A stretch of DNA of 40,803 nucleotides, from assembly GCA_002245135.1 (NCBI GenBank), contig NGBS01000025.1, forward strand, positions 62,001-102,803. The letters run 5' to 3'. Of this stretch, positions 2,886 to 40,803 are shown piece by piece. The translations under genes and the position numbers were made by a program. Positions within the stretch are counted from its first letter, which is position 1. The number at the start of each line of letters is the position of its first letter. The notes under the pieces are model-generated. The model had not been told where the DNA came from, did not search any database, and saw only the letters and a program-made list of their open reading frames with translations. This DNA comes from Proteromonas lacertae (lineage: Eukaryota).

Positions 2886-2981
2886 GTTCTAAGATTTAAA
2901 TCAAAATTTAAATTTCACTCGATAGTCTAATTTCTCTTCAATATAAATCAAATGTAATTGAAATATTCTTTTTGTATAAAT

Positions 2982-7535: not shown

Positions 7536-7810
7536 ATGTTAATAATTATTTAATTATATAATTTTATTTATATACTTTCATGATTCTTTTTATTACTTCT
7601 TAATAAACAAGTGATATTTTTCTTTTTTTACTTAAACATTATATAAGAGTAAAACACATTTCATTGAATAAACCTCCTCAAATGTTCATAGCTTAACATA
7701 ACTATACTTAATAAGCATAGTTAGTATTATCTAAAATAGACAAAAAAGCTATTCAATAATTTCAAATAAGTAGAAAGGTAGAATATTATATTGTTAGATA
7801 AAATCTATAT

Positions 7811-8068
7811 TGTTGTGCGTCGTTTGTCATATTTGGCCATTTGTCTACCAGACACTTTTAAAACAAACTAAATATATATTCTTACTTGTCTTGATTAAAA
7901 ATTGTTACTTTTATACTTACTTTGTTATTTGACCTACCTCTGCAGTATACTATTTTGTTAATATAAATAGTTTGAATATTTGTGCCGTTTGTTTTCTAGA
8001 AATTTTTGAAGCCAACTAAATGCATATTTAGCTAATATAGACTAAAATACATTAGCTGAAATGATTAG
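7811..8068. repeat. Third (solo) copy of the MITE terminal inverted repeat
   Basis: Near-identical to 2982-3238 in the same orientation; no matching opposite arm found nearby. Confidence 0.9.
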
Positions 8069-16590: not shown

Positions 16591-17602
16591 ATTATATTTC
16601 TTATACTATTTTCTTGTATTATTGCCTTTTATATTATTAAATATAACTCATATGTTTCTATAGTTACAAATATGAATAATATATTTTTAAATAGCATATA
16701 TTCTGTCAACACCTTTGTTACTGCTGGTTTAGGTAATAGATTAATGTCATTTGCAGGAATAATAGCTATTTCTATATATTTTGATTATAAGCCTAAAAGT
16801 ATTATGGTAGTTATATTAAATAGTTGAAAACTGGAACGAATTCAATATTTTCTATAATGTTCCTAACTATAATATAACAATTAGTAGCAACAAAAATGTT
16901 AAGAGATATATGATATGTCCATTTAATATAAGAATGATAGAAGAATTAAAAAGAGAAAAAGATTTATATTTCTGGTACATCTGGTGTGATACAATATCGA
17001 GTTTAATAACAAATAATAAATATTTAACGAAAATAAGTAGGTATATTCCTAAAACACAATTTGTGTCTAAATCAAATATAGTCTTTAATTTATATTATCA
17101 AATATTTAATTCACTTCTTCATATAAATAACAATATACAATCATCAATAAATCATTTCATTTATATGAATAATATTCATGATTATTTAGGAATTCAAATA
17201 AGGGTTGGCAATGCAGATTTAAAAGAAAAAGAATTTACTACAATTGATGATATATATATCATATTAAATTTGGCATCTAAACATAAAGAATATAGAAATT
17301 GGTTTTTAACAGGAGATTCTTATAAGCTTAAAATAGAATTGAAAAAGAAGTATAGCAATATTATCCTATATTCAATAAATAAAACAAAACATTATAATAT
17401 TTATAAAAATGACTCTACTATTGTAATAGAACATGAACTATTGTCAAAGTCCAAATTTTTTATTATATCAAAAAGCACTTTTGGTTTAACAGCTTTATTA
17501 AAATCTGGTATATTGATAAATAAAGGCATAAGAATAGGTTTTGAAATTAAAAATGGTAATATTTTTGATGTATATACATACTTCAATGATTTTTTAAAAT
17601 GA
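16579..17602 (+). CDS. Fucosyltransferase-like (GT11/GT37/NodZ-type), 2 exons; intron 16799-16823
   Basis: AGLGNRLMS in exon 1. A 25-nt GT..AG intron restores the frame to GIQIRVGN, FLTGDS and STFG. Confidence 0.8.
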
Positions 17603-17777
17603 TGAATAAATACTTCATCATTATTTATTTTTAAGTTGAATTTTCAAAAATCAAACATTTTGATATTTAATTTTATAGCAATTCTTCCAATAGTTAAATT
17701 TAAGGAAAATTATTTATTATTTATCTTAAATATAATTATGAGAATTTCATATAGTATATAAATGTGGCACAAAGTGT

Positions 17778-17825
17778 CAGAGTCCCAACGAGTTTTCTAG
17801 GGGTCTGTCCACTTCTAGATTTAGA
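17778..17825. repeat. Left copy of 48-bp imperfect direct repeat
   Basis: CAGAGTCCCAACGAGTTTTCTAGGGGTCTGTCCACTTCTAGATTTAGA; 39/48 identical, ungapped, to 20813-20860. Confidence 0.85.
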
Positions 17826-18063
17826 CCAATGTATAGCTATACTAGGTCCAATACCGAGAGAATCAGCACTTCCTTTTACTTGAAGGACACTGGTAAGTAC
17901 GACCTATGCATACGAAGCAGTGATTGTGAAGGTTATTCAACTCAAGTGTTCCTTCAACAAACACTTGATAGCAAGGTAATATCTCTTAACGATGTTACGG
18001 TCTTTTAATTACTTGTCTTCTTCTTCTACTATGATCTGTATCTGTATCTGGGGGTTCAGTTAC

Positions 18064-19308
18064 TTATACTATCTCGATGATCCCGTTCTCACTGATCTTT
18101 AACAACCTACCTGTCACGATGAAGAAGTAATGGGTAACATTCTTACTAGTGAGTGCATCGTTGTACATCTCAAAGGAGACCTTGATATCATTATCGAGAG
18201 GACGGCCACGCTGGTTCTTGATGTTGGTTAAGTCCGAGGTGGTAAAGTTAAGGATCTCAAGGAACTTCTCATTGAAGGGTAGGTCAATTGCCTGGTCATT
18301 GTAGCTACCCTTGATGAAGCTCTTCATGTGCTCGTAACTATTGTAAGTCTCCATGTTTTGGAAGTCAGGGTTGTAGTTAAAGTCATTGATCCACCACTTG
18401 AACTTAGAGGTCATCGCAGCAGGCAGAACATTACCTTCCTTATCATAGCATCAGTAAAGGATGAACTTTACGTAAGGTCCGATGGAACTATTGATATTGA
18501 AGGAGTAGTTGAAGCAGCTGGAGCTGTTACTTACTTGAGTTCTAACAACATGGACATCGTTGAAGTCCACAGGATTTGCAAGCAATGTCCTTGTTGTAGT
18601 TGGCCTTGAAGTAGATATCTCAAGACTTACCTTAGTCTCATCCTTTAGTGTAGCATCAACGATGTCCACCATCTTACCTTTGTCTTGCCATCGTATAGAG
18701 ATGTAAACCTTCTCCCCGAAGTAGACATCAATAGGAAGACTGAGGATGGTGTTAAACAACTCCTTGCAAGGGATCTTCATAAGCAAATCGAAGGCATCTC
18801 CATCTATTGTTTGTTAATAGTCATAATCATCATTAGCACCTCCCGTGAACTTCATTCCATTTTCAAGGACCTTACCTTTCTTATCAATCCAGACTCCATC
18901 GTAGTACATCCCATGATGAGCCATCTTACTTGCCTTACGCATAATCTTAGTCATGATACCTCGGAAGATCTCGTAATGCTCTTGAACCTTTAACAAGGAT
19001 ACTCCCGATTGATTGTAGACATGGATACTTCCAAGGACGAAGGTATCAGCTAAAATAACTTCCTTGAGACCAGCTGCTTCTACATATAGTCGATATTGTA
19101 AGTGGGACTTAGAGAAGTTTATAAAGTTATCCCCGGCAATCTCTAAGGTGACTTCATCGCTAAGACAATCCTTAGTAATCTCTATTCGTTGTACTTGACT
19201 TGCAACTAAAGGGATGAGTTGATCGAGAGCTACTTAGGGTTGCACTTCATCGATGAAGTCATGTTCCTGGGAGATGATGGAGGATGGACCAGTATGGATC
19301 TTACTCAT
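18064..19308 (-). pseudogene. Major capsid protein homologue (Polinton-like virus type), 414 codons with three in-frame stops
   Basis: ORFs 18996, 18786 and 18414 share one frame with ATG 19308. Stops lie at 19234-36 (TAA), 18814-16 (TAA) and 18451-53 (TGA). Colinear similarity blocks match 39807-40803. Confidence 0.75.
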
Positions 19309-19329
19309 TGTGATATTCAGGAGGTAATA

Positions 19330-20813
19330 AATCACTTTGGGAAATAATGCAATAGCATACTTACACTTTACGATAAGGCTTCTTGTTGAGTTCATTCTGT
19401 TGTCTCTTACTTAATCGAGCATACCCACAGGATTCCTTAAAGGACTTCTCTTGATTGAGTATGTTGAATAGAAAGTAGACTGATAAGAACCCGATGATAA
19501 TCAGCTTCTTGTAAGTTGCCTGTGACAAGTCCAGGTGATGTGCTATCCTGTTGATCTTAAGTAAGTACGGGACTCTTCCACTTGCACTAAATCTCTTGAG
19601 CTGTTGTAGTTGTTCTGAAAATTAAAGACTCCCAAGTACTGTCCATTGAAGTTCTGATATTCTTGGGAGATCAATAGATTGAGTTCATCTTTCACTTGGC
19701 TTCTTACTTCCTCGGGACACTCTTCTATGAACTCTTCATCATCATCATTGTCATCATTGTCAGTCTCTTTGGAATAGATGATTCCTTTACCTATCCTGAC
19801 TTTACTAGGAGCTGAGTCTGCTGTGTAGCTGTACTCGTATTGTGGTACATGATTACTTTGCCCTGAGTCTATCGGTAGTGTTGTGCTTGCTGGAGATGAT
19901 GAACCTGATGCAAGGTACACTGCTTCAAGAACTTCAGCTGCTCTAAGTACGTGGATCTTTGATTGTCTTGGATTGCATTTCCATGAACTCCATTGCCAGC
20001 TACGAGGTCTAAGTTGTTCTATCCTCCGATCTCTAAGCTTATGCTATCTACCATGGAGTTATTCATCTGGGTTAAGTTCTTGTTGCCTGATGCTTCTATC
20101 ACGTAGTTGACAACCTCTTGATACTTCTCCTTGAGCTCCTGGACTGATAGTTGATTCACCATCTCGTTCCTTAAGTAGCTGCTGGAATAGTTAACTCCTC
20201 CTAAGTTGATACTATCGGTGGTGACTTCTCCGATCATAGCTAATAGACCTCGCTTCATCTCCATCTCATTGTTAGGGATTACCATCACAGGTAAGCTTTG
20301 TTCCACGGGAAGAAAGCGCATCTCGACTCTTAGTTGTTGAACCATTATTCTTGCAATCCTCTTGTAATCATCTTGAGCACTTCCTGTTGCTGATCGGAAT
20401 AGAACTAGTTAATTCTCATATGGTTATCATATAAGTCATCAACTTCATCATACCACTCCTTAGATAAGTCTTCAAGGTGTAAGTCATTCGCTGGTTGTTG
20501 TGGACTGGAGATGTAATCTATTAGCTTATAGATGGTCATGGTAATTTGCTTAAGGAAAAGAATCATTGAGAATTGCTTATGCTCCGAAGGAGCTTAAGTA
20601 TGATATCAACATTGCCTGTTAATTGATGGCTCCACCTCTGGCTATTCCTCCACAGTGTTTTCTAAATCCTATCTTACGAGCAACGACAGCTACTTGTTGT
20701 TGTCCTAAGGCATCAGCAGCATTGTAAATGATCTTCTTGTCTTGTAGGAAGTAGACCCCGTAGGAGTAATCCTGTAGGCGTCTTATATAAATATGACTAT
20801 GGTACATTGTCAC
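19330..20813 (-). pseudogene. Degraded ORF(s) of unknown function upstream of the island capsid gene
   Basis: Consecutive fragments 20813-20619, 20345-20019 and 19920-19543 share the codon style of the capsid gene; includes an acidic DNDDNDDDEEF tract. Confidence 0.5.
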
Positions 20814-20860
20814 AGAGTTCTAACGAGTGTTCTTGAAGTCCGTCCCCTTCTAGATTCAGA
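20813..20860. repeat. Right copy of 48-bp imperfect direct repeat
   Basis: CAGAGTTCTAACGAGTGTTCTTGAAGTCCGTCCCCTTCTAGATTCAGA. Confidence 0.85.
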
Positions 20861-20994
20861 GTTGACCTTTACAAGGCCTTCATCGATGCAATCGATTTCT
20901 GTATAAATAAACAATATAAACATTAAATATAAAATGAAAGAAATGCTTATTAAATATCATTATAATGTGAATTACTATGTGATTGTAAAACTTC

Positions 20995-22059
20995 ATGAAA
21001 ACTAGAACTATATTCTATTTTTTCATATTTTCTTTAACAATTATGATTATTAGCTTAAATTGCAATCATTCATTAGATTTAATGATAATAATAGTTCCAT
21101 CAGATTCTTACTACATTTATATGATTAAGAATTTTTATATCACTAATATAATAAGATATAATCTCACTTATATGTTTAAAGTTGTAGCATTTACCTATAA
21201 TATGTATATATTATGCAAAGAAATGAATATTCCAGTTGATAAAATGGATAAATATATCTTAGAAGATAATAATTCATATAAAATAAATTCACCTAATTTT
21301 ATCAAAAAAACAAGATTAAAACATCCTATTGTGTATAAATATTTAAAAATGTATCAAATTGTACTATTTATTGATGCAGATATATATTTCTTTAAAAGTC
21401 CTTTGTTATTATTAAATTACTTTAACAAAGATTCAGAATTGATGATGCCTTGTGATAATAAAGCATGCACTATACTAAACTATGGATATTTGTTAATTAG
21501 AAATACGAAAAACGCTCTTAGATATATAGCTGAGCTTATATCTCTAGAAAAGAAATGTAAATTATATACGTGGGAATATGGGGAACAAGGAATTGCTAAT
21601 AAGCATTTACATTCAATACATTACTTAAAAATTCAGCGAATGCAGATAAATACATTTATGGATGGACTTAATTTCTTTAATAGTTATTCATTTAATTTTG
21701 ATATAACAAAAACAAAATTATTAGGATTTCATAATGATTTTACTATAGGTATTTATTCAAAATTGTATCGATTAAAAGAATTGAATCTTTATTTCTATGA
21801 TAATTACCAAAACATTAATGATTATAATTATTTATATTATATTGGAAAGACAAATTATAACATCAATATTACTTTAAAAATATTATCTTTCCTTGTGTAT
21901 CTAAGTAAAATGCTTAATAGAACCATTATATTACCAAGGTTTCAGTGTTTTAAGAAGAAATTTTGTACATTTGTTGATTTATTCAATTTAGAATGCTTCA
22001 GATCATGCAATATAAAATATGTAGAAAATATATCATTTTTGCTATATATTTGCTTTTAA
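20995..22059 (+). CDS. Nucleotide-diphospho-sugar transferase (GT77-like)
   Basis: N-terminal TM, VLFIDADIYFFKSP, LNYGYLLIR, EQG, KLYRLKELNL and LNRTIILPRFQC motifs; true 3' end uncertain. Confidence 0.75.
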   Translation: MKTRTIFYFFIFSLTIMIISLNCNHSLDLMIIIVPSDSYYIYMIKNFYITNIIRYNLTYMFKVVAFTYNMYILCKEMNIPVDKMDKYILEDNNSYKINSPNFIKKTRLKHPIVYKYLKMYQIVLFIDADIYFFKSPLLLLNYFNKDSELMMPCDNKACTILNYGYLLIRNTKNALRYIAELISLEKKCKLYTWEYGEQGIANKHLHSIHYLKIQRMQINTFMDGLNFFNSYSFNFDITKTKLLGFHNDFTIGIYSKLYRLKELNLYFYDNYQNINDYNYLYYIGKTNYNINITLKILSFLVYLSKMLNRTIILPRFQCFKKKFCTFVDLFNLECFRSCNIKYVENISFLLYICF

Positions 22060-24990: not shown

Positions 24991-25604
24991 AGACAAATCA
25001 TTAATATCCAGAAATAGAGATTTATTATTATTATTACATTAATATTTGTTATTTTGAGATAGTAATCAATATAAATTAATCATCAAAATAACAAGTAGTT
25101 TATAAATATGTTAAATATAACTATTGAGTAGTTTGTAGATGAATTTTAATATATTAGTATAGATATTTATACAATTTCAACCAATCTTAGTCATAACTAT
25201 AGTAATTAAGGTAAAACAAGAAGCAGGAATAATATTCTATATAGTATGGTAGTTTGTATAAAGCAAATGTTACTCAGTATGTAATTAAAATAGATTTAAC
25301 AAAATAATGCTCGAGGTGTGACCGACCAACGGTCAAAGTTAGATTAAAGGTTTTACCTATAACTATAGGTTACCTATTTATACAACCCTGATAATAATGA
25401 TAAAAGTATATAAAAACCAAATGTTGTATCATAAGTTCTATATTACAAGTATTTTATTTATATTATTTTGATGTACAGTATTTTTCAATAACAATTAAAT
25501 CCTTCTCACTCAACTTTTCCAAGCCAAAGTTTTGTAACGAATATTTTCACATAAGAAGTTTTCTTTGTCATTCAATAATGCCGAGCTTCAAGCCTTAATC
25601 ATTA

Positions 25605-26087
25605 TTGATTTTCGCGCCAACTCCTTTTCAGCTACTGAATTACTCGTTACTGAAATATTCAGACATAACTGGTATAAAGCCAGAGAGACTCAGAAAGATG
25701 ATCCGAAAGTTACAAAAAGGAGAAGAAATCGATAAAGTGAATGTAAGCAAAGGCAAAATGAGACCTCTGGGGAAAAGTGATGGAGAGATCTTGTTAGAAG
25801 AGATCAAAAGAAACAATCGAGCAACGTTAAGACAACTTCAAGAAGCTATTAAAGCTAAAACGAATAAAGTAGTGTCTATAAGCACAGTTCAAAGAACATT
25901 AACAATGTATATGAAGAGAGATGTATTGCCAACAATTACATTAAAGAGGTTCATAAGCAGAGGATCAAGAGTTTGCGAGATAAATAATCTAAAGGAAGAG
26001 AGAAAAATAGTAGTTCGAAAATTTTTGGCATATCTAGAATCAGGTTATCGTCCCATCTTTGTGGATGAGTCACATTGGATATCTTAA
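25605..26087 (+). pseudogene. Tc1/mariner-IS630 transposase N-terminal half (HTH plus first catalytic D)
   Basis: NNRATLRQLQEAI...VSISTVQRTL (HTH) and RPIFVDESHW; truncated immediately afterwards. Confidence 0.8.
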
Positions 26088-27688
26088 TCATTTCATATTA
26101 TATTTTACAACCCTGGTTATTGTTATTGCTATTACCTATATTAAATATTTAAACGTATACAAGCACTTTATATTATGATGCAAGATATAATATAATCGGA
26201 ATATTATGAACAAATCTTTAAATTAAAATATGGTAATTATTATAAATATTAGATACAGAAAGAGATATTTAACGTGGTGCTTAACCTCTCTTAGAAACAA
26301 ATATGATGCAATAACTCAATTTAATCAAACAACACATCGTGCAATTAAATTTATAGTTAAATATATTATTATTAATATTCTGATATAGTCAATTGTATTA
26401 TTGGATGGAAAATGATGAAGTTTGTAACATGAAAATACGTGGAAAACTTCTTCAATTAAATAATTTCTTCTATAGAACTATTAATAACTCAGAATATATT
26501 CAAATTATATATCGCTATCAAAATTTATAAAGAAAATAGAATAACACCAAATGACTATAATATACTACCAAAAGTTATGGACTTCAGCATTTATAAAGCA
26601 AAAAATAGTTGTACAATTTCTGTTGTACAAAAAGCATATTCAAAATTTATCATAAAACCTAATGCATATACAAGACATACTAGACATCTATCACATGGGT
26701 TGAGCAAGGCAAATTTTATTTATATTTTATAAACACATAATTATTCTAATACTGATATGTCCTTTTTGTTTTATGTCCTTTTTTCGTGTCTATTCTGAAC
26801 TTATGAATAATCATAATTTAAAAGGGTTAGGGTTTCTAAGAGAGGTTATTGTAATTTTTGTATATCATTATAATAAAACTATTTGAATTTAGGTTTTCTA
26901 GAAGTAGATATTTTTTTTAATGTCGGGATAATAATAGTATCATGGTTTGCTTCAATAGTTTTATTATATATTGTTTCACATTTGATATAATATAACAAAA
27001 AATTGTATTTAGCTATTATTAATAATACGTTATTGTTTCAGTGTGTGAATGGAAGCTATTCACGAATGATTCATATTTTTCATTTTTCTCAAGAATTTAG
27101 TAATTTATTATTATTAATGGTAATATCATTTTTTTCGTTAAACGACTGGAAAGATTTATTCCTCCACTTTCTATTCTTACATTATCACACATAAGAAATG
27201 TATCATACAACTTCTATTTATTTCATTACATAATAATATTTATTATTAATGAGTTTAACATTAAATCAAAAAACATTTTTGTATGTTTTTTATTCGTTTA
27301 TGTTATAGCATATGTATTTACAGAATATTATGGAAAACCAATTTGAAAAAAAGTAACCAATGCATTTATACAAGCTACTTTCATTCTATTTCTCAATTTA
27401 ACTTTAATAATATTAATTAAACGTTTAATTAATATATGTATAACTGTAAGAATATCACTGTAGGTGCGTACCAGACTATTCTTAGGTGCCTTCTACAGGT
27501 AAGAATAAGCGATTTGAGTGTAAATTAGTTTTTGGTACGGGTTATACTGGAGCAAGTGGTGAATTTAAAATTGTGTATATATTTTTGTGTATGAGTAATT
27601 TTATGGGTTAAAATATTTTCTTTTGTTTTTTGTATATAATTTCATTTAACTTTTTCTTATTGTTTTTTATCAATCATAATTTCAAAAA

Positions 27689-28042
27689 ATGTCAAGAATT
27701 TGGATCGAGAATGTTAATATAGAAGATAGAAATAAGCGAGAAGATGAAGAATTTGAAAGAATCTATGCAATTATTGAAAGTGAAGTTGCTAGAATAGTAG
27801 CTCAACCATCACCACCATCACCTCCAGTAGTAATGTGGTATACATCTGATACAGCTGATGAGGATGATAGAAAGTATGAAGAATGGCGTGCAATTCATAA
27901 ACCAACTAGAGTAGCACAAGCAACCATACGCCCTAGAAAATGGGTTGATCCTGAAGAGGAGCGCAGAAAAACAAAGATGTTAAAGCGTTATGGCATTGAT
28001 GAAAAAAACATCATTGAAGAAAGACTAAGATTTCATAACTAA
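27689..28042 (+). CDS. Hypothetical viral protein (117 aa)
   Basis: Intact ATG ORF with charged composition and an A-rich leader shared with ORF 29297. Confidence 0.65.
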   Translation: MSRIWIENVNIEDRNKREDEEFERIYAIIESEVARIVAQPSPPSPPVVMWYTSDTADEDDRKYEEWRAIHKPTRVAQATIRPRKWVDPEEERRKTKMLKRYGIDEKNIIEERLRFHN

Positions 28043-28170
28043 TTCTTATATCATTGGTTTTAATTGAATTTTTGTTATTTGATTGGCTGAATAGAAATAA
28101 ACATAATATTACATAATTCTTTTCATTCGTAAATTTCTTGTGATTTTTGAAATAATCTGCATAAATTAAA

Positions 28171-28727
28171 ATGAGTGATATACAAAATGAACTCGATGTT
28201 AGTATTGAAAAACAAGATGAAATGCCTGATGTAAAATCATTAATTATTAAAGTATTTAAGGATATGTTGGATGGTATGTATTCTGTGATTGAAGAGTATG
28301 AAGATGATCCAAAATGGAGTAAACAACCAGGTGATGATATTGATATAACAATGGAAGAAGAAGAAGTGAAGGAAGAACAAAGTGAATCTAAATCTAAAAA
28401 AGAAAGGATATAACAAAGTCAGATCCAGATTCACAGATATGTAGTACTTGCGGTAAGAAGAAAGCTAATGATGAATTTGGTTATAAGAGTGAAGGTGTAT
28501 TCTATAAATCTTGTGCAGAGTGTAGAAATAAGAAGAAGAGAAGATATGAAGAAGGAAAGAAAGGAAGTGATAATAGTGGAGAAGATAAGAAGCGTAAAGT
28601 AGAGAATAGTTCCACTGCCGAGGGTCGACCAAAGGTAGAGGTTGCTAAAGTAGAAACACCTACAAGTTCTATCCCGGGGGTAGCTACAGTAGATCTATCT
28701 ACATCACCTACTTGTATAATTAATTAA
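28171..28727 (+). CDS. Acidic protein with CxxC...CxxC zinc finger (frame break near 28410)
   Basis: Downstream frame reads CSTCGKKKANDEFGYKSEGVFYKSCAECRNKKKRR up to TAA 28725-27. Confidence 0.6.
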
Positions 28728-28791
28728 CTTTTGGTTTAAAATTCATTTTTATATTTCTATACGTTTTTATATATAAATAATTTCACATAAA

Positions 28792-29119
28792 ATGTCATTT
28801 AATAATACACAATATTCAACTATGCTTAATGATATGAATGATACATTAACAAGTCTAAAGCAAGAAGGTCTTATATCATAGATATTGTCCAGCAGAAATC
28901 ACTGAGATATTAAATGAGCCAGAACCTGTAATAAATAGAGCTTTAGGTAAAACTACTATTGTTTCTGCTATTCCATTTACTTTAACACCTGAAAATAGTA
29001 GAATAAATTCCAGAAATGCTAGTGATAATGAAGATGAAGAACCATTAGAAACAGAAATAGAAATTATTCCTATTAATAAACCTGAGATTGAAATTCAAAA
29101 ACCATTCATAAATATTTAA
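28792..29119 (+). pseudogene. Small acidic hypothetical protein, broken near 28880
   Basis: ATG after CACATAAA; two fragments with protein-like composition. Confidence 0.45.
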
Positions 29120-29296
29120 TTTTATATAGTCTTTTTTCGTATTTGATTTTGAAAGTTATTTTTTGTACCCCCTTAAAAAATTACATAAAGAAAAACCGTT
29201 TTTTTCATTCACACTTTTCTTACTCATTTTCAGTATTATATTTTTTTCATTTTTTTACTTTAATAGAAAATTAATTATTCAATCATACAATCAAAA

Positions 29297-30468
29297 ATGC
29301 CAGCAGACAGAGTCAAACAACCAACCAATTCAGAATTATGCTCTCAGCTCCCATTAAAGGGACAGGCTTATGAGTTCTATCAGAAAGTGAGTCGTAACAT
29401 CCAGCATTTAAAGACATTTTGCGACGAAATGTATATTCAAAGTTTGGCTTATGATGACAGCAAAAAATCAAAGAAGAAGCAAAGTCCACCACAATTCAAC
29501 TATATCGAATTAGAGAAGTCAGCTACAGCAGTTAATTATTGCTTTTCATGTAAGTTTGATAATCAGAAGTTAATTCCCATTAAACATCTAGAAACATTAG
29601 ATCAAAATGAGTATATGAATTTATACTTTAGTGACGATGAGATGAAGAGTATAGTAAAACCAAATGTAAAACAGATTAAACCTTTTATTCAACCTCAGTT
29701 AAAACAACAACAACCACAACAAGAACCACCACCACCAACTGTACCTCAAAAACCTAAAAGAGTTTATAAAAGAAGAACTGATACTGTAAAGAAACCTAAA
29801 ACAAAAGCAGTTATTGATAGTGATGATGAATTAGTTCATTTAAAGAAAAGAAAGATTGTTAAGGATTCTGATTTTGTTGATGAAGAACCAATGGGTATAA
29901 TTGTGAAAGATAATGAATCAAGAACATCTGCTGATGATTTATTAAGTAGCCAAAGTCCTACCTTTACACCTCCAATGTCACCAAGGTCTGATACTACACT
30001 TCTTGATGTTACTGATATTGATATTCTGGATGGTGAATTGAAATATTTTAATGCTGAATTAACTAAAAAAGATGAAGAAAAACAAAAAGAGATAGAAGAG
30101 AAAATTAAACATCAAGATGCAGAGAGAAAGAAACAAGAAGATGAAGAAAAAAAGAAAAAACAACAAGAATAAGAAAGAGTTAGAAAAGTACAAGAAGAAG
30201 CAGAGAGAAAAAGAAAACAAGAAGAAGCAGAAAAGAAAAGAAAAGAAGAATTAGTGGTTATTAGAATGCTTCAAGAAGAAGAGAATATGAGACAACAAGA
30301 AGAGTTAAGAAAGAAATGGGTATTAGAACAAAAGAGACAAATGGAAGAAAAGATGAAAAAAGAAAACGATGAATTAGAAAAGAAAATGGAAGAAGAGTTT
30401 AAGAAGAGAATTGAAGAAGAGAATTGAAGAAAGCTGAAGAGTTTGAGAAGATGATGAAGAACTTATAA
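29297..30468 (+). CDS. Pro/Gln-rich and Glu/Lys coiled-coil viral protein; internal TAA at 30170-72
   Basis: 291-aa ORF; the same frame continues as E/K/R-rich coiled coil after the stop. Confidence 0.65.
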
Positions 30469-30604
30469 GTATTAATATATACTTTAAATTTGTCTGGTTT
30501 ATGCTTTAATCCATATACTTGAAAAAGCACTTTGAATTCATTACTTTGATGAAAATTGGTGTTTGTTTAATATGTTAAAAATAACATAAATAAAAACATA
30601 AAAA

Positions 30605-31765
30605 TTATACGAAATCATTAAATAGCGAATTTTTCTTATATACTCTACCATATCTACTTTTTCTACCTTCTGGTGCTGGTTGAATATCTGCTTCTATAGG
30701 TTGTGCTTCATTATTTATACTATGAATTTGTCTTAATCTAAACTTACCATTTGTGGTAATACTATTAACTGGTACTCTTTTAATTTCATGTGATTTGAAC
30801 CTATATGAACCTATATCTCTAGGATTGAACTCTTTAGGTATTGTTCCATCCAAGTTCTTAACAGAATATGAAAATGGTCCAACTTTGTGTATTTGGTATA
30901 CTTTATCAGTATAATAAGTAGTTTTTTGAAGTTTGTTATCTCTACGTTCTTTTATTCTTACAAAATCATCAGCTTTAAAATGAGTATCACTTTTACGCTT
31001 CTTTAAGTTTCTAGCATGGGATTCTTTACACAATCTATCTTGGACTTCAAAATCATTGAATACTTCATTTGGAGTTAGATTATTGAGTGCAGAATGTGGT
31101 TTTGCATTGTAATCATCTACAACAGTATATGCTATATTACACAATGATTCAATATTGTTAATTTTATCAAATTCTTCATCAGAAAATGTATTAATTTTTC
31201 TATAAAACATATCTTTAATAGTTCTCACACATCGATCCAATATTTTCATTATATTATGTTCATTACGTTCTTTAAATATAAATCGTATATGATTTTTATT
31301 AAACAAATCTAAAAATTTCTTACCATAGATAATACCAGACTCTTCATCTGACAATATACTTCCTACAAAACGAGCGTTTTCATCCTTAGATTGCATACCC
31401 TGATAAAACCATTTTTCAAACACTGGATACACATCATTTTCTGATTTAGATTTAACATAATATATCCAACACTTACGACTAACAACTTCTATAATTAACA
31501 AAAATGGAACTTTTGTATTGTTGAAAAACACTAAATCTATCTGATATGACCCAGGTAACTTTTCAATTTCATATTTAATTCTATTCCTTTTAGTTGCAGT
31601 GATTTGATAATCTGGTTTAGACTCTACAAGTTCACTACTAGCTTTTTTAATGTCAGATTTTTTAAAGTTATTCTCAAGTTCATTTACAGAGAAATTAATA
31701 AAGTCTCGTTTGTTTAAATAACCATATGTTTTGTATAACTCATTTATTTTATCTTGTAGTGACAT
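30605..31765 (-). CDS. Retroviral-like (rve) integrase, Polinton type, intact
   Basis: GSYQIDL, IEVVSRKCW, ILSDEESG, LDRCVRTIK, YNAKPHSALNNLTPNE and the FKADDFVRI SH3-like tail. Confidence 0.9.
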   Translation of the reverse strand: MSLQDKINELYKTYGYLNKRDFINFSVNELENNFKKSDIKKASSELVESKPDYQITATKRNRIKYEIEKLPGSYQIDLVFFNNTKVPFLLIIEVVSRKCWIYYVKSKSENDVYPVFEKWFYQGMQSKDENARFVGSILSDEESGIIYGKKFLDLFNKNHIRFIFKERNEHNIMKILDRCVRTIKDMFYRKINTFSDEEFDKINNIESLCNIAYTVVDDYNAKPHSALNNLTPNEVFNDFEVQDRLCKESHARNLKKRKSDTHFKADDFVRIKERRDNKLQKTTYYTDKVYQIHKVGPFSYSVKNLDGTIPKEFNPRDIGSYRFKSHEIKRVPVNSITTNGKFRLRQIHSINNEAQPIEADIQPAPEGRKSRYGRVYKKNSLFNDFV

Positions 31766-31833
31766 TCAAAACAATATATATAAAATATGAATGATATATA
31801 TTTAAAGAATTAATGAATTAAAATATAATTAAA

Positions 31834-32610
31834 TCATTCTTCTACCTCTCCCAAATCCTTATCACTTAAAGTGTTACCACCATTACCAAAGTTAATAGAC
31901 TTAGCAGCACTAATAAAACCATTACTAATTACTTTCTTAGCAGGGAATGGTCTACGAGTACTAATTAAATCACTATCTTCTATCTTAGTTCTCTTAATTC
32001 TTGGAGGTGAAACAAATTTGCTTTGATTAGCTTGTTCTTTCTTAATTTTCTTCTCATTACTTCTTCTAATAGTTGTAGCTAAATCAGGATTTTCATCATA
32101 ACCAACAATATCACTACAAACTCTATGATTAACAAAGTTTTGAGTACCATTACTCTTAATAGAGATTTGATTATCAACAACACTTACAGCAATTTTACTA
32201 CCAACATCAACATTAGATGGAACTCTATAGTTACTATTATCCCATATCATAATAGAATTGAAATTGTGGAAGTATTTAATACCATGTTGAGGTTCTCTAC
32301 ATCCTACACTAATCAAATATCCACGAATGATTTTTTCTATAAAGTCATTCTCGTTTCTATCATAAATTTGTTTCAATACATATTTCACTTCATCAGCTGA
32401 ATATGTTTCAAAATCTCTTCCATTATTAATTACAACTTTATGATCCAAATCATGAACAAAAGTAATCAATACATATTGACTAGTTTTAGTAGGCTTAACT
32501 GTAATACTCTCAACAGTTCCTTTAATAATCCACTTGTTACATAACTTTGAATTTTTGTAATAATCACTGAATTCTACATCTGTAGCTTCATAGGGTGTTT
32601 CGTTACTCAT
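31834..32610 (-). CDS. Hypothetical protein, possible OB-fold ssDNA-binding protein
   Basis: WIIKGTVESITVKPTKTSQYVLITF and SIMIWD...VGSKIAV resemble OB strands; acidic C-terminus; divergent from PolB. Confidence 0.45.
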   Translation of the reverse strand: MSNETPYEATDVEFSDYYKNSKLCNKWIIKGTVESITVKPTKTSQYVLITFVHDLDHKVVINNGRDFETYSADEVKYVLKQIYDRNENDFIEKIIRGYLISVGCREPQHGIKYFHNFNSIMIWDNSNYRVPSNVDVGSKIAVSVVDNQISIKSNGTQNFVNHRVCSDIVGYDENPDLATTIRRSNEKKIKKEQANQSKFVSPPRIKRTKIEDSDLISTRRPFPAKKVISNGFISAAKSINFGNGGNTLSDKDLGEVEE

Positions 32611-32694
32611 TTTATATAAGGGAGAGATGAAAATAAAAATGATTAAAAAATGTCAAGAAAAATGAAAATGAAAGTTTCTTTTTATTTTTAAAGT

Positions 32695-32724: not shown

Positions 32725-32769
32725 TTCATATTTCCATTTTTGATTTATTTCGCAAATTCTGTCTATATA

Positions 32770-35700
32770 ATGAGCAAACATAAAAAGCTTTTAAAAGCAT
32801 TTTTTAAGCTTCTAGAACAAACTTTTAATAAAAATAAACATCATAAACATAAGCATCACCATCATCATAAACATAAACATACAAATGAACCACCACCACC
32901 ACCTCCACCTACACCACCAGAAGAAGCTCCAAAACGAAGATTAGCACCATTATTTAGTACAGATGCTATTCAAAATAAAAAAAGATACAATAATGATATA
33001 CCAATAATCAGTGATACATTCTTTGGTGGATTAATGCCTTCTTCCCTACCAAAACCTAACCAAAATCAAAGATTTAATGATAGAATACGTGATGCTAGAG
33101 AAGTTGATAAATCATCTCAAGGTGTTACCAGGAAATGGGTTTTCAATTATAACAATAGAAATTACAGTACACCACAACAATGTTATCATGATTTTGTTAA
33201 TAATAGTGATATCAAAGATATATTACATGAACTAGCTGATACTATGAATATGATTAAATTTTTCTTTATTGTACGTTCAATTTATATACCTGATGAGTCT
33301 ACTGACAGTGATGATGAAGTTTCCATATTTAGTCGTAGTAGACTATGTGAAATAACAAAAATGTCTACTGTAGGTGAAATACAAACTATACTGGAGAATA
33401 TATTTACACAAATATCAGAAGATGATTCAAATCATCCTCAAAGTGGTCTTACTTTTGCTAGAGTCAATACTATTGAATTATATGTAACAAAATTTAAAGT
33501 GATACGTGGAAGCAGTTTTATTGTTTTACCTGCTAAACTTCAAGGTCTTAGATGTTTTATAAATGTAATAAATGAAGATAATGAATGTTTTAAGTGGAAT
33601 GTACAATGTTCATTATATTCTAATAATCTACAATGTAATAAAGATAAACCTGAAAAATACAAAATGTATGAAAAGAAACATGATTGGAGTATGTTAACAT
33701 TCCCTGTTGATGCTACAGACAATGAATCTATTGATAAGTTTGAAACAAAGAATCATCTAAATGTGAATATATTTTATATTGATATTGCTAAAGATAAAGA
33801 AGAAATATTCTTACCCATTCATTTATCTAAACAAAAGAAATCTAAAAAATATAGTGTTGTAAATCTATTGCTAATAAAAAATGAAGATGGAAATTCACAC
33901 TATGTAACAATAAATACCTTACCTGCTCTATTTAGAAAAATGATAGATAAAAAGAATAATACTAATAATATATTTGTGTGTCCATACTGTCTCTTCTATA
34001 CTTACGATGATGGATCCTTTAATAGTCACCAAATATATGACTGTCAAGATAAAGAGAATGTATTAAGATTATTCCCTGATAAAGATGATAAAGAAAAATC
34101 ATACTTAAAATTTAGACATTGGACTCACCTCCAAACATTGCCAGTTGTTATGTATTATGATACTGAAACTTATTTTGTACCATATGATAATGAATTGAAT
34201 TTAAGTAGATATAAATCTATGGAAGAAATAGATAATAATGATACTAGAATAGAATTATCAAAAACTGAGCAATCTATTATGGCTAGGCATAAGCTTTATT
34301 CCTACTGTATCTATGTAGATAGTAAAATACCAGATATAAACAGTTTTACTGTGATTAAATATAAACAAAATGAGGATCATAATATTGAAAATGATTTTGT
34401 ATTGGATATATTAAATATATATGATCAAATATGTACAGTTTACAATTATAGACTAGCTAATCCTAAACCTTTTGATGGAGATGAAATAGCTAAGGATATA
34501 CATAATAAAAAGAGAAAATGTGATTTTTGTGGTAAACCATTTAATTCTATTGATCATGTAAAGGTACTTCACCATGATCATTTCACTGGTCATTATATTG
34601 CTTCAATTGGTAGTAATGAGAATCTAAATATTGATATAAAAAAATTAAAAGTACCAATAATAGGTCATAATGCTATGAAATATGACCAGCATTTCATAGT
34701 AAAGGAATTAGCCAAATTTGCTGCAATAACTAATAGTCCACTCAATATTATACCTAATACAGATGAAAACTATAAGTGTATACAATACAAAAATTTGGTG
34801 TTTATTGATAGTTATTTATTCTTAGCAGGTTCTCTAGCAAATTTAACTAGTGATCTAAAAATTACAGCAGAATTAAATAATACTAAGAAAGAAAAATTCA
34901 AAACAATTTATGAGAATTTTAAAGAATATAATGGACATTACCTAGATGATGAAAATATTGAAAAATACTTACTTCAAAAGAATTATTTTCCATATGAGCA
35001 TATGACATCTCTTGAAGCTTTTGAAGAAAATTTCAAAGATCTTACTATAGATGATTTTAAGTCTAAATTGAATGATAATGAAACTATTAAACCTGAGGAA
35101 TTTGATTTTGCTATGGAAGTAAATCAAATATTTGGATTTGATAATATACGTGAATACAATTTATTTTACTTGAAAATCGATGTTTATATCCTTCAGTCTA
35201 TATTTAATGATTTTAGAGATAATATATTTGATACTTTTCACATAGATCCTTGTTGGTATATTTCATTACCCAGCTTATCACTTGATTTATTCTTACAAGT
35301 ATCTGATGTGGAACTTAAATTATTTTGTGAACCTGAATACTATGATTTTATATTGAATGGTTTATACGGTGGATTATCATATATTGGTAAGCGTAAGGAA
35401 GATGCAAATAACAAATTTATGAAAAATTATGATGAAACTTTACCTAGTAAATTCTTATTATATCAAGACTATAATTCTTTATACCCTTCAGTTATGGCTT
35501 CTTGTAAAATGCCTTTAGATGAACTTTGAATTTATTGATCCAAATTCTATTACATTAGAAAGTATACTTGATTTGCCATATTATGAAGAAATGGATCAAG
35601 ATAGATTAGAGAATAATGATTTTGGTTATATATTAGAAGTTGATATCGAGTTACCTATAGAAGCTACAAGACAAGTTTAAAGAATACCCATTGTTACCTG

Positions 35701-36854
35701 AAAGGAAGAAAATACCTAAAGAATGGTTATCTGATATACAAACTGAAAGAGCTGAAAATCTTGGTATTATACATAAAGAAAGAGGTACTTACCATGCTAC
35801 TGAGAAATTAATAACTGATTTGTATCCTAAAGAAAAATATATAATACACTACCAAAATTTGAAGTTTGCAGTTGAACATGGCTATAAAGTGGGTAAAGTG
35901 TACAGAATAATGAGATTTACTGAAGGTCTATATATGGGTAAATATATTAATACTATGGTACAAAAAAGAGTCCAAGCTAAAGAAAACAATCAAAATACTA
36001 CTGCAGACTATATAAAGAAATTAATGAATAGCTTTATACGGTAAATTTATGGAACGTGTTGAAAAGAGAAGTAACATATCTTTAATTACTAATGAAGATC
36101 AAATGATTAATGCTGCATAGTGATCCATGGTTTAAAGACTTTATCATTAATTGAAGGTGATTTAAGAATTGCACATTTTCATAAGAAGCTATATGAAATT
36201 AATAAACCTATACAAATTGGAATGGTTATCTTAGCACTGTCTAAACTCAAAATGCAAAAATATTGGTATGATGTATTAGATAAAAAAATATGGATCTGAT
36301 AAGCTAACACTATGTATGACTGATACTGATAGTTTACTTTTCTCAGTTGAAACTAATGATATTTTTGAAGACTTAGAGGATCCTATCTTTAATAATTGGA
36401 TTGATGGAAGTAACTTGAAAAATCCCTATTTAGAAAATTATAAGTTAGATATACATAGAGCTGTTCATTCAGGTACATTGAATCGATTAAAATTTGAAGA
36501 AGCAGGATAAGAATAATAAAAACCTGTATGTTATAAACAAAGTTTATAGGATTAAAATCAAAGTGCTATATATACGAAAAGGAGAAAGTGAATGATGATT
36601 CTGATAATAATACTAATACTGACAATCGTTGTAAAGGTATTAATGTGAAAGTTTCTAGAAAAATAACTTATGATATATACAATGATTTTGTTGAAGGTGC
36701 TAGTAAAAGTCAAAAATATGAAGTATGTCAAATCAAATCAATACATCATAATGTTTATACAACAGTACAAAACAAAACTGGCTTAACCTATTATGATGAT
36801 AAAAGATATTTTTTTGATAAATACAATACATTGCCATATGGATATAAAAAATAA
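32770..36854 (+). CDS. polB: Protein-primed family B DNA polymerase (Polinton/adintovirus type), frameshifted after 35527
   Basis: GSSFIVLP..INVINEDNECFKW, ExoI YYDTET, EndoVII-like CDFC...HHDHFTG, ExoII HNAMKYD, ExoIII YLKIDV, motif A DYNSLYP, motif B KKLMNS(L)YGKF, motif C TDTDS and terminal DDKR...TLPYG. Confidence 0.93.
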
Positions 36855-36889
36855 TAATTAATACTTATATTATATAATTGTTTTTTTCT

Positions 36890-38706
36890 TTAAAATAGCT
36901 GCCACCTCTTCATATTGAGGTACAAATTGAGGTACATTTGCAGCTTACTAATAAATTTTGAGCCATATTGTGGTGTTTGTTGACTATATTTTCTTGCTTT
37001 TTGTGGTATAACATGAAAAGTGTTATCGTATGGATTAATATATTCATCACTAAACTTTTCAGTTTTTATAGAATCTGCCATTTTATTTAATCTTGTTTTC
37101 ACTGAATTTATAATATTTTCTCTCACATTTTCTCTTCTTCTCATTCTATTAGTAGTTCTATTCATATCTAAATCTTTATTTACTGTACTACGTTCTATAT
37201 TTTTTATTATTGCCTTACGTCTCTCTATAAACTTCCTCACTTGATGGATTATTATCATTATCTTCACTATCACTATTTGCAGGTGATGCATTATAAAATG
37301 CATTAACATTTCTATCAATCAAATCTGCAGTAATTGATGGATGAGCAGGAGGATAATTATCTGGTGCAACATATCTCCAATTTCTATGATCTGCAACATT
37401 CATTCCACATAAGCTGGAACTGATCTTCTATGTTTAATTTGACGGTTAAGTTGCGTATCTAGAGCTCTATTCATTCTAAAAGTTATAGGATTAGCAAATA
37501 TATTCGTATTGATTTGTCCTTGTGGTACATGAGCTTCTGTTAATATTTTTTGTATAGTTGCTAAATAGTTATATCTATATCCAGTTCTATTATCACCATC
37601 TGGTAATCCATAAAATTTCTTCTATCAGGATGATATGGTAAAGTATATTCATTATCATTTTGATAATTACCACTTAACTTATCTTTTAATATTGGTATAT
37701 AATATAAAGCTAATATATACAAATCAGTTACACAGTTGTATATGATTAACGCAATTGAATAAGCTGTTTCTTCTTTTTGATTTGTTAAATACCAAAATTT
37801 AGTTCTCATTAAACGACCTATATAGAACTTTAACTTATCTTTCAGAGAATCACAAAAGCTAATTATATCATAATTTGCCATTGTTGTTATTATTTTCATT
37901 ATTATCATTGTTATTATTTCCATTGTTGTTATTATTGTTATTATCATTACTTCCATTGTCTGCATTTACTAATACTCCTCTTACCATATTATCATGTCTA
38001 TTTTGTATAATATTTTCTGCTCTTATTTCAGCTGCACTATTATAATGTTCATTATTCATTATGTTAAAATCATTTTCTGGTTCTGGATGTCTTTCATCAA
38101 TTTCATAATGTGTTTTTTTAATTCTTCTATTTTCAAGCTGTGTAACACCTATTCTCTCTTTTGGGTGTAAAACAACAAATGGATTTCTTTGTAATATAAA
38201 ATCAGATGCCATACACAATTTATCAATACCATCTGCTATACGAGTTTTAAATATTCCACATTCTCTTGCATTAGCAGAATTTTCATTTCCTGCTAATTTT
38301 GGATTATAGCTTCTAATGGTTTGCCATGTGCAAAAGGACCTGTTACAAATAAATTCTTACACCAATTAAACATTTTCATATGTTCATCATATAAATTATA
38401 TATTCTATTAAACTCATGATTAGGCCAACCTATTGGAATAAGTCTATATTGCATAATCAATGCTTTGTTAAATCTTTTCACTTCTTGATTCACATAATTA
38501 TTTAAATCATCTTCACTTATATCTTGAAATGGTATGACTTGATTCCTTCTATGTCTTCTTCTATGTCTTATTCTGCTCATATCAATAGGTACATTGTCTT
38601 CATTTTCTTCATCTTCATATTCATCATCTGTTGGTTCATCTTCTTCATCATCATTTGAATTGTTAGCTTGTGGTTGTGGTGGTGGTGGTTGTTGTTGCGG
38701 TTGCAT
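36890..38706 (-). pseudogene. Fragmented hypothetical viral gene(s) with Q/P, D/E and N-rich tracts
   Basis: Five consecutive or overlapping minus-strand ORFs that change frame, consistent with one or two frameshifted genes. Confidence 0.55.
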
Positions 38707-38779: not shown

Positions 38780-39798
38780 ATGCAACCAAAAGATAGTAAC
38801 AACATATTAGCTAATAGAAGAACATTGTTCTTAACAACATCAGACTATAATGAAAAATTATCTAATAAATGGGTTAGATGTATTAATACTCCAACTATTA
38901 CTGAAAAATATCAATATATGAGTTTAATTACTGCAGTTATTCCAAATAACTTCTATACAGTACAAGATGAAGTAAATGATCATATTCTCTTTAATTTCAC
39001 TTACTACGAATGCATAAATCCAGATAAAACAAATCCAGCAGAATGGGAAAAACCTGAAAATCAGCTTGGACCTTATAATAGAACTATTGATATTAAAATA
39101 CCTCAAAGAAATTATACAGGGAAAAGAATTATTAGAATTTTTTTAGTAATAAGTTACTATCGTTAAGTTTTGTAGAAATATCAGGTGCAGTAGGACCATT
39201 ACCAGATGAAGATCTTTCACAAAACTATCCGTTTCGTAAAATAGATGATCAAACAGATATACTTCAATTTAGTGGAAAGTTCAGAAAATAGATTACACTT
39301 AAAATTCAAATACTTAACTCATTTTGGTAGAATATATTTCACAGATTTTAGCATTGAATTCCCTAACTTAGTTTATAAGTTATATGGTGTAGATGAGATG
39401 AACAAAAAGTTAGATATTTATCATACAGCAGCTCCAATTGAAGCATTTTTTAATAATATTGATATAGTATATGACAAAATATTACCTAATCAACCGTCTT
39501 TAATTTGAGGTGTCATTCATACAAATTAGATGTGATTGGGTTAATAGCGGTGGAGAATTCAATGGTTTTAGCTAACATACCTATAAAAGATCTTAATACT
39601 AACTACACCACATTCACCAATCCTCAAATTGAATGGACAGCTAAGAAGATGCAATATCACGAATATCAACGAATGACTATATCAGTCACACAACAAGATG
39701 GTTATGCAATTTATTTAAAAAACTTACCCATTTATTTTGAGATTATTTGTATTAATAAATTTCTTGCTATTTTTAAGTATTTTAATCTTTTAAAATAA
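38780..39798 (+). CDS. Minor capsid (penton-like) protein, frameshifted
   Basis: TLFLTTSD, MSLITAVIPNNFYTV..NDHI, IKIPQRNYT, VLANIPI and MTISVTQQDGYAIYLKNLPIYFEI match the PLV/virophage penton pattern; lies immediately upstream of the major capsid. Confidence 0.75.
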
Positions 39799-39806
39799 CA
39801 TAAAAT

Positions 39807-40803
39807 ATGTCAATCACTGCTATACCTAATTCACAAAAGCATGAAAGCATTGTGCCAGCTTACATACCAATTTACAACCATATTTTAGTTACTCCAAACC
39901 AAAGCAGGAATGAGACTGTTTTATCTTTAAATTCAAACAGTGATGCTATTACATTTGAAATATCTGGTGATAATGTGTTAACTTATCAAAAAGCTATTTT
40001 GAATGCATATTAGATTATACTACAGGTCAAACTAGAGCTCATGCTGCTGCAGATTCAGGTAATTGGGATATGCCTTTTGTACCTAAAAGAGATACTAGCG
40101 GCAAATAATTTAGATAAACTAACATTGAAGAATACTATGAATTTTGGTACATTAAAAGTATACAACAAAACAGGAACTTTGCTATGTGATTTGGATACTA
40201 GTTATAATGAATATAGAGATTTAGCTCATGAAAATTGCAAATCAATTTCCTTATGATTTAAAAGAACCAGATTATTACAAGAAATATTTGATGGTTTAGG
40301 ATTTAATACTGCAAATCAAAAAATAGGTGAAAATTTATTATGTCATTCAGCTAATACATTAAATCCAAGTGGAGGTGTTCAAAATTATTATGTAATGCAA
40401 AATGGTATGACAGATACATTACATGGTCAAATACTGTGTAGATTTCATTTTGCAGACATATACAATACTATTTTAGCTTTGAAGAATGATATTTATTTTG
40501 GTGAAGTCATTTATATTCAATTCACATTTGCACCTATAATGAATTGGGTTCATCATAATGATGGAGATAAATATATAAACCAATGGCAAGCATTTTTAGG
40601 AATGAAAATAGTTAATCCTCATCTTTATGTTTGTTATAACAAAGATCCAACTTGCAATGCCAATACCATCAATTATTCAACTCATCATCCTATGACTTTA
40701 CTGATTTTAACATAGTTCAAATAACTAAAGATCCTATTCCAGGTAATAGTACTTTTAACTATAACTTCAGTATTAATAGCAGCATTGGAAGTTATGTTAA
40801 GTT
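39807..40803 (+). CDS. Major capsid protein (putative double jelly-roll), frameshifted and 3'-truncated by window
   Basis: Follows the penton gene. ITFEISGDN, LKVYNKTGTLLCD and NTILALKNDIYFGEVIYIQFTF recall PLV capsids; homologous to 18064-19308. Confidence 0.72.

What the first reader, a model, noticed from the sequence alone, without database searches (positions are those of the whole stretch)
18064..19308. Hidden second viral major capsid gene inside the glycan cluster, homologous to the Polinton-like virus capsid 21 kb away
Seen: three small ORFs are one 414-codon frame. It aligns colinearly with 39807-40803: SQEH/SQKH, SDEVTLEIAGDN/SDAITFEISGDN (8/12), LGSIHVYNQSGVSL/FGTLKVYNKTGTLL, FNTILSLPIDVYFGEKVYI/YNTILALKNDIYFGEVIYI (12/19) and FNYSFNINSSIGPYVK/FNYNFSINSSIGSYVK (13/16). 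The two genes differ strongly in GC (about 40% vs 25%) and codon use (AAG/TTC/AAC vs AAA/TTT/AAT). Inference: two distinct lineages of one probably undescribed capsid family have integrated in this host; this is not a recent duplication.
Basis: partly seen in the sequence, partly recalled or inferred. Interest (0 to 1): 0.9.

Follow-up and report, generated by a model that had tools for sequence, protein, structure and literature searches.

The report
Stranded viral capsid cassette in protist
A 3.1-kb GC-rich patch of foreign DNA between two host sugar-modifying genes carries a broken gene predicted to encode a Polinton-like virus capsid; it is likely the leftover of a second, different virus, and its capsid type is already listed from a related gut protist.

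Summary
Observation confirmed, interpretation mostly right, novelty overstated. Window 19308-18064 (minus) is a 414-codon frame with 3 stops. It is homologous to 39807-40803 (E 1e-8; best of 200 shuffles 27.7 vs 47.8 bits). An intact homologue folds as a double jelly-roll capsid (pLDDT 77; PBCV-1, faustovirus and Sputnik capsids top). The two window genes fall in different clades (AU p 3e-49), with GC3 52% vs 18%: two virus lineages, not a duplication.

Corrections. The single frame hides a compensating frameshift pair and a deletion near 18575-18620. The family is not undescribed: by eye its closest relative is a Proteromonas lacertae capsid in Bellas et al. 2023 (113 of 195 block positions, against 86 for the best database hit; 285 hits in that genome).

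New here: the gene sits on a 41%-GC island (about 17760-20895) that starts and ends at a 70-nt direct repeat (53 of 70 identical). No polymerase, integrase or packaging ATPase is recognisable in it. Best reading: a dead capsid-module remnant of a second Polinton-like virus. Not excluded: a small helper-dependent capsid cassette. The host is inferred, not shown, to be a low-GC Blastocystis-like stramenopile.

The parts
17756..20895 (.). Foreign GC-rich island (40.9% GC against 22-23% in both flanks), lying between two host genes on the + strand (16910-17602 and 20995-22059)
   Evidence: GC change points 17764 (range 17754-17774) and 20895 (20879-20908); composition; flanking ORFs; right flank gene has Pfam Nucleotid_trans
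17756..17825 (+). Left direct repeat R1 (70-nt ungapped core; weaker gapped similarity to about 17864); coincides with the left island edge
   Evidence: 53 of 70 identical to R2; best of 30 shuffled islands 40 of 70
20791..20860 (+). Right direct repeat R2 (core; weaker similarity to about 20893); coincides with the right island edge; contains the ATG of the first island ORF on the minus strand
   Evidence: the 17 mismatches fall 6/6/5 over codon positions, so no sign of protein-level selection
18064..19308 (-). Pseudogene of a double jelly-roll major capsid protein (Proteromonas-type Polinton-like virus family): 3 stops, an out-of-frame stretch near 18577-18620 and about 10 missing codons
   Evidence: fold from intact homologue P0012 (32% identical over 391 of 414 residues, E 1e-72)
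19361..20807 (-). Four to five broken ORF pieces upstream of the capsid gene, same strand and similar codon bias (20619-20807, 20405-20593, 20019-20408 continuing to 19869, 19543-19920, 19361-19621); no family assigned
   Evidence: no Pfam hit above cut-off for 4 pieces, no PHROG for 6 of 6, no homologue for the 129-aa piece among longer proteins, low-confidence model without match
39807..40803 (+). Second major capsid gene of the same family, other clade, cut by the window end; five frameshifts and no in-frame stop in the frameshift-aware alignment
   Evidence: 215 of 322 aligned residues identical to P0010 (67%), shifts near 39973, 40082, 40233, 40292, 40693; tree
32740..36983 (+). Protein-primed family B DNA polymerase of the low-GC Polinton-like element; 3' part in pieces
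   Evidence: Pfam DNA_pol_B_2 E 2e-14 and 2.5e-6, both above cut-off
30605..31765 (-). Likely retroviral-type (rve) integrase of the low-GC element
   Evidence: Pfam rve E 0.008, below cut-off; PHROG transposase E 7e-4
38780..39508 (+). Broken gene upstream of the second capsid gene; possibly the minor capsid protein (position and recalled look of the sequence only)
   Evidence: no significant Pfam or PHROG hit; untested inference

Best explanation
The broken gene at 18064-19308 is homologous to the capsid gene at 39807, is predicted to encode a double jelly-roll major capsid protein, and is likely the dead remnant of the capsid module of a second, GC-richer Polinton-like virus that entered this protist genome independently of the AT-rich one 21 kb away. 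Steps. (1) Shown: a 41%-GC block sits in a short gap between two host glycan genes. (2) Predicted through an intact homologue: capsid fold. (3) Shown by tree and codon use: the two capsid genes are different lineages. (4) Inferred: the source was a full-size virus of the kind abundant in Proteromonas, of which only the stretch between two copies of a viral non-coding repeat (probably a promoter-like element) was captured or kept; the repeats were probably already unlike when it arrived. (5) Inferred: it then decayed neutrally, mainly by C-to-T changes and small indels, makes no capsid, and cannot move by itself.
For: Homology and shuffles; family of unnamed proteins, 17 clusters at 50% identity with E up to 0.001, 11 up to 1e-30. 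Model of P0012 pLDDT 77, pTM 0.81; top PDB matches Sputnik, PBCV-1, iridovirus and mavirus capsids, E 3e-13 to 1e-9; the 16 best VIA rows are all double jelly-roll proteins, Z 24.1 (rmsd 3.5, 338 aligned) to 7.9, the next row 6.8. Tree: island gene with the P0012/P0016 clade (96/93), 39807 gene with P0010/P0002/P0009 (100/99); one-clade tree rejected, p-AU 2.7e-49. Closest relative by eye is a Proteromonas capsid; motifs INDFNYNP, QNMETY and SIRW are shared with it and with 0 of 41 stored homologues. Bellas et al. report that capsid genes usually mark 15-30 kb insertions and that lone ones are mostly fragments (passages). Decay: TGA at codon 286 aligns with Arg in most homologues; multi-codon deletion in a conserved stretch. 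Codon bias is still strong (AAG:AAA 28:2), which fits modest decay and argues that the 24% repeat divergence is older than the insertion.
Against: Both island edges fall at the repeats to within about 10-20 nt; random trimming of a long virus would not be expected to do that twice. No inverted repeat, polymerase, integrase or ATPase remnant links the island to a full virus. No neighbourhood of any homologue could be read (all empty), so it is not shown that this clade sits in full-size viruses. The island gene has a long branch (2.15), so its place in the tree is unsure. The fold was predicted for a homologue, not for the island protein. The Proteromonas comparison is by eye on seven blocks chosen by me, from a table cell cut at about 400 of 450 residues.
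Confidence: 0.6

Rival explanations
1. The island is a complete small element: a roughly 3.1-kb, direct-repeat-bounded, capsid-carrying cassette (satellite or defective genome) that is copied, packaged and integrated with enzymes borrowed from a helper Polinton-like virus; the repeats would be its ends, or the redundancy left when a 3,035-nt circle integrates.
For: Island starts and ends at the repeats; host DNA directly outside; all recognisable ORFs on one strand; no replication genes. Longest contigs for several proteins of the sister clade lie at 4.0-4.8 kb (4451, 4457, 4083, 4316; 4028, 4759), as a small unit or repeat-bounded contigs would give. Repeat-bracketed replication modules are described in Polisuviricotina (10.64898/2026.10.13.758929, section 13).
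Against: Repeats are only 76% alike with 8 transversions among 17 differences, more than the decay seen in the capsid gene; no clear target-site duplication (the only candidate, TATAAAT, is also part of both repeats and AT-rich); no second copy in the window or in IMG/VR. One sister-clade protein lies on a 7,818-nt contig, others on 1.5-3.3 kb contigs, and such contigs are short in general. A capsid without ATPase or minor capsid gene is a poor satellite design (own knowledge).
Confidence: 0.25
2. The island is what is left of two related viruses integrated head to tail, or of a recombination between two diverged genomes: R1 and R2 are the equivalent ends or motifs of two different viruses, and deletions removed the rest.
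For: Explains 76% identity; tandem integration with internal deletion is described.
Against: Needs several deletions; no inverted copy of the repeat and no junction inside the island in GC or codon use.
Confidence: 0.08
3. Assembly artefact: DNA of a free virus or another organism joined into the host contig, with stops and shifts as sequencing errors.
For: Bellas et al. warn that many stops in such elements are assembly errors. The five one-base shifts without nonsense codons in the 39807 gene look like such errors. No reads could be checked.
Against: The island gene has substitution-type stops and a multi-codon deletion; CpG is depleted as in the host (0.48 vs 0.43 and 0.35); the edges fall cleanly between two host genes.
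Confidence: 0.05
4. The gene is intact under a different genetic code (stops read as amino acids) or is a host-domesticated capsid.
For: Only three stops in 414 codons; strong codon bias kept.
Against: TGA aligns with Arg, not Trp; host and viral ORFs are open and end normally under the standard code; table 6 leaves the TGA break; a frameshifted stretch and deletion hit a conserved motif.
Confidence: 0.02

Closest known systems
Proteromonas lacertae endogenous capsid cluster of Bellas et al. 2023 (PMC10120064, Tables S1, S3, S4; one of the clusters labelled 'new', number 24 by my count of columns; representative gene_49653, 450 aa)
   Same: By eye 113 of 195 identical positions over seven blocks of the island protein, shared exact motifs, same PBCV-1-like Foldseek call; endogenous in an AT-rich protist
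   Different: Here a pseudogene on a 3.1-kb direct-repeat island with 41% GC; that study lists no hits in 10 Blastocystis assemblies; gene context of the Proteromonas copies was not seen
Polinton-like viruses and Polintons (Polisuviricotina) with pPolB and rve integrase
   Same: The AT-rich element at about 27.6-40.8 kb has pPolB, a likely rve integrase and a double jelly-roll capsid; the island shares the capsid
   Different: The island has no polymerase, integrase, ATPase, recognisable minor capsid gene or inverted repeats, and is a fifth to a tenth of the usual 15-30 kb
Repeat-bracketed modules and tandem insertions in small eukaryotic DNA viruses (10.64898/2026.10.13.758929, section 13)
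   Same: A viral module set apart by repeats
   Different: There the bracketed module is the replicase; here it is the capsid side, and it stands alone in host DNA

Membership tests
Double jelly-roll major capsid proteins | Two tandem jelly-roll domains matching solved capsids over the whole length | tested here: met
   On intact homologue P0012: (Z 24.1, rmsd 3.5, 338 aligned, model range 11-469); island gene linked by E 1e-72. The island protein itself was not folded.
Proteromonas capsid cluster (Bellas 2023) | At least 25% identity over 30% of length to a cluster member | tested here: met
   By eye 113 of 195 over seven blocks; not a computed alignment
Polinton-like virus (island) | Major capsid gene | tested here: met
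   as above; broken
Polinton-like virus (island) | Packaging ATPase | tested here: not met
   No [AG]xxxxGK[ST] motif in any of six frames of the window; a decayed motif could be missed
Polinton-like virus (island) | Replicase and integrase | tested here: not met
   No Pfam or PHROG match; only about 1.5 kb of broken ORFs beside the capsid gene; no similarity to the window's own polymerase or integrase
Polinton-like virus (island) | Minor capsid gene | tested here: inconclusive
   None recognised; the one model was low confidence (pLDDT 51)
Polinton-like virus (island) | Terminal inverted repeats and 15-30 kb size | tested here: not met
   Direct repeats, 3.1 kb. Filed as a remnant of such a virus, not as a complete member.
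Polinton/PLV (element at 27.6-40.8 kb) | pPolB, rve integrase, major capsid gene | tested here: met
   integrase below Pfam cut-off
Polinton/PLV (element at 27.6-40.8 kb) | ATPase, terminal inverted repeats | tested here: inconclusive
   Element runs off the window; none seen inside; no genome held
LTR or tyrosine-recombinase retroelement carrying a capsid | Near-identical terminal repeats, target-site duplication, reverse transcriptase | tested here: not met
   Repeats 76% alike, no clear duplication, no RT hit
Circular Rep-encoding ssDNA virus | HUH Rep with helicase Walker A | tested here: not met
   No Walker A, no Pfam hit

The most novel reading that the evidence does not exclude
The island is an integrated copy of a new kind of minimal element: a 3-kb, direct-repeat-bounded cassette that encodes a double jelly-roll capsid but no replication, packaging or integration enzyme and rides on Polinton-like viruses of gut stramenopiles, that is, a satellite of a Polinton-like virus. 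It would also place Polinton-like viruses in a Blastocystis-like host, where a 2023 survey listed none.
Probability: 0.2. Interest if true: 0.75.

Novelty: new member of a known kind. Interest (0 to 1): 0.4.

Why it matters
Endogenous Polinton-like viruses are common in protists, so a decayed capsid gene alone is ordinary. What is useful: two lineages of a poorly characterised capsid family, invisible to Pfam and PDB sequence searches, occur in one AT-rich protist genome, one matching host composition and one not; this ties about 40 unnamed metagenomic proteins to the Proteromonas cluster and suggests a gut-stramenopile virus group. If the host is Blastocystis, it is a host without listed capsid hits in the 2023 survey. 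If the repeat-bounded cassette recurs, it would be a new helper-dependent element type.

Tried and rejected
No whole genome is held, so copy number and empty sites could not be tested. No loci for the family in IMG/VR, JGI metagenomes or GTDB genomes; none for the polymerase in IMG/VR; repeat pattern absent from IMG/VR. These scans need exact short patterns and are weak evidence. No sequencing run was listed; that is no evidence either way. Pfam (0 of 22 members above cut-off), PHROGs and PDB sequence searches do not recognise the family. Rfam: 1 chance-level hit. The repeats fold no better than shuffles (z -0.4 to -1.3, 4 of 4). Alternative genetic code rejected. Coding origin of the repeats not supported. 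The TGTTTGTT element of human Blastocystis is not enriched (6 vs 3.5 expected, 15 of 100 shuffles as high), which neither supports nor excludes a Blastocystis host, since the tortoise clade lacks it. Exact look-up of 10 window proteins found 0 of 10, so the host stays inferred. Earlier scan notes: nothing on this genome or sequence; 8 listed notes on other genomes did not bear on it. Literature searches showed no paper describing Polinton-like viruses in Blastocystis or a capsid-only direct-repeat element; most subscription journals and bioRxiv supplements are not covered.

Full report
Setting. The window is about 22% GC over its first 25 kb except for a block of about 41% between 17.7 and 20.9 kb, and 26-30% from 27 kb on. 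The left part holds eukaryote-type glycan genes: GT92, galactosyltransferase, LicD, two acyltransferase-3 genes, FkbM, DUF1647, a nucleotide-diphospho-sugar transferase and a UDPGP piece. The right part holds a protein-primed DNA polymerase (Pfam E 2e-14) and a weak rve integrase (E 0.008). No whole genome is held.

The observation. 19308-18067 on the minus strand is 414 codons with stops at codons 25, 165 and 286. It matches 39939-40529 at E 1e-8 and 40700-40801 at E 2e-4; 0 of 200 shuffles exceeded 27.7 bits against 47.8 observed. GC is 41.6% against 28.7% and GC3 52% against 18%; host genes and the polymerase have GC3 15-19%.

The family. A word search found 1 homologue, P0002 (E 2e-32). 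A full HMMER scan with P0002 found 17 clusters at E up to 0.001; cluster look-ups and a profile search brought the set to 41 proteins, all from Logan and all unnamed. Pfam and PDB sequence searches do not recognise it. The island protein is closest to P0012 among these (32%, E 1e-72); the 39807 gene is 67% identical to P0010.

Fold. AlphaFold2 on P0012 with 22 sequences gave pLDDT 77, pTM 0.81. Foldseek returned Sputnik, PBCV-1, iridovirus, EhV and mavirus capsids at 8-11% identity and capsids of ascovirus, adintovirus, MELD virus and virophages among predicted structures. VIA-align ranked 16 double jelly-roll proteins first, Z 24.1 to 7.9. The capsid call holds for the family; the island protein itself was not folded.

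Already listed. In the supplement of Bellas et al. 2023 (PMC10120064; seen: passages of the main text, rows of Tables S1, S3, S4, parts 27 and 28 of file 2) a Proteromonas lacertae protein is confirmed as a capsid by Foldseek, and that genome has 285 hits in one cluster labelled 'new'; 10 Blastocystis assemblies have no count. By eye this protein matches the island protein at 113 of 195 positions over seven blocks that I chose; the best stored homologue matches 86 of 195 over the same blocks. Three short motifs shared with it occur in 0 of 41 stored homologues. A 2026 preprint also shows Proteromonas capsids in a similarity network (10.64898/2026.07.28.741278, passages). So the family is catalogued but unnamed. 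Supplements of bioRxiv preprints were not seen and may describe it further.

Two lineages. In a tree of 20 rows (the two window genes with out-of-frame parts masked, and 18 of 41 homologues; near-identical members and most short fragments left out), the island gene joins the P0012/P0016 clade (96/93) on a long branch (2.15) and the 39807 gene joins P0010 (100/98) within a 100/99 clade. Holding the two together costs 83 log-likelihood units, p-AU 2.7e-49. The Proteromonas protein could not be included.

State of the two genes. The TGA in the island gene aligns with Arg in most homologues, which fits a C-to-T change and not a recoded stop. The conserved YNKD..C motif lies in another frame; 2 of 4 frameshift-aware alignments place shifts near 18620 and 18577 with about 10 codons missing. 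The gene is therefore a pseudogene, but only modestly decayed: AAG:AAA is still 28:2, and 3 stops stand against 22 remaining CAA, CAG, CGA and TGG codons. The 39807 gene has five one-base shifts and no in-frame stop; these may be read errors, as Bellas et al. warn.

The island. GC change points lie at 17764 and 20895. A 70-nt direct repeat sits at 17756-17825 and 20791-20860, 53 of 70 identical, against at most 40 in 30 shuffles, with weaker similarity running on to the right edge. Mismatches show no codon-position bias (6/6/5). The repeat occurs nowhere else in the window. Upstream of the capsid gene lie four to five broken ORF pieces on the same strand with no assignable family and no similarity to the rest of the window. 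There is no Walker A motif anywhere in the window, no inverted terminal repeat and no clear target-site duplication.

Mechanism. Most likely (0.6) a full-size, GC-richer Polinton-like virus of the Proteromonas type left only its capsid-side stretch between two copies of a non-coding viral repeat, and this has decayed since. The repeats differ more than the capsid gene's decay would explain, so they were probably unlike on arrival. The fact this reading explains worst is that both edges fall on the repeats. That is the main support for the rival (0.25): a discrete 3-kb capsid cassette moved by a helper virus. Contig lengths of 4.0-4.8 kb for six sister-clade proteins fit this weakly; one at 7.8 kb and several shorter ones do not. 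Repeat-bracketed replicase modules and tandem insertions are described (10.64898/2026.10.13.758929, abstract and section 13); nested direct-repeat retroelements in such viruses carry reverse transcriptase (PMC12220804, passages), which the island lacks.

Host. Inferred only. The closeness to a Proteromonas virus, the glycan gene cluster and 22% GC fit a low-GC Blastocystis-like stramenopile; tortoise-clade Blastocystis have 21-23% GC and normal stop codons (PMC12129017, passages). I put this at about 0.6. A paper on gut egoviruses (10.1101/2024.03.23.586382, passages) discusses parabasalid polintons and did not bear on the family.

Verdict. Real, correctly called a capsid homologue of a second lineage; a new member of a known kind, with one unexplained feature, the repeat-bounded 3.1-kb unit. 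Interest 0.4.

Noticed in passing
window 2976-3249, 3348-3622, 7806-8068: Three copies of a roughly 260-nt repeat, 91-99% alike, two of them in inverted orientation 98 nt apart; looks like a small non-autonomous host transposon.
   Followed up: no
window 25578-26306 (+): Broken Tc1/mariner-like transposase piece (Pfam HTH_Tnp_Tc3_2 E 4e-4, below cut-off) just left of the AT-rich viral element.
   Followed up: no
window 27689-40803: AT-rich Polinton-like element whose GC3 (15-18%) equals the host's; polymerase open for 929 codons, then in pieces; left end not located, no ATPase inside the window.
   Followed up: partly
window 31834-32610 (-): Intact 258-aa ORF between integrase and polymerase with no Pfam or PHROG match; its N-terminal half looks beta-rich, possibly an OB-fold (recalled resemblance only).
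   Followed up: no
window 28420-28570 (+): Broken ORF with two C-x2-C pairs, a possible zinc finger, near the left end of the viral element (read).
   Followed up: no
window 17829-18008 (+): A 59-codon open frame starts inside the left repeat region, opposite to the capsid gene, about 70 nt after a TATA-like stretch; no family match.
   Followed up: partly
window 1-24000: Dense cluster of glycan-modifying genes (GT92, galactosyltransferase, LicD, two acyltransferase-3, FkbM, DUF1647, nucleotide-diphospho-sugar transferase); several neighbours have no Pfam match.
   Followed up: no
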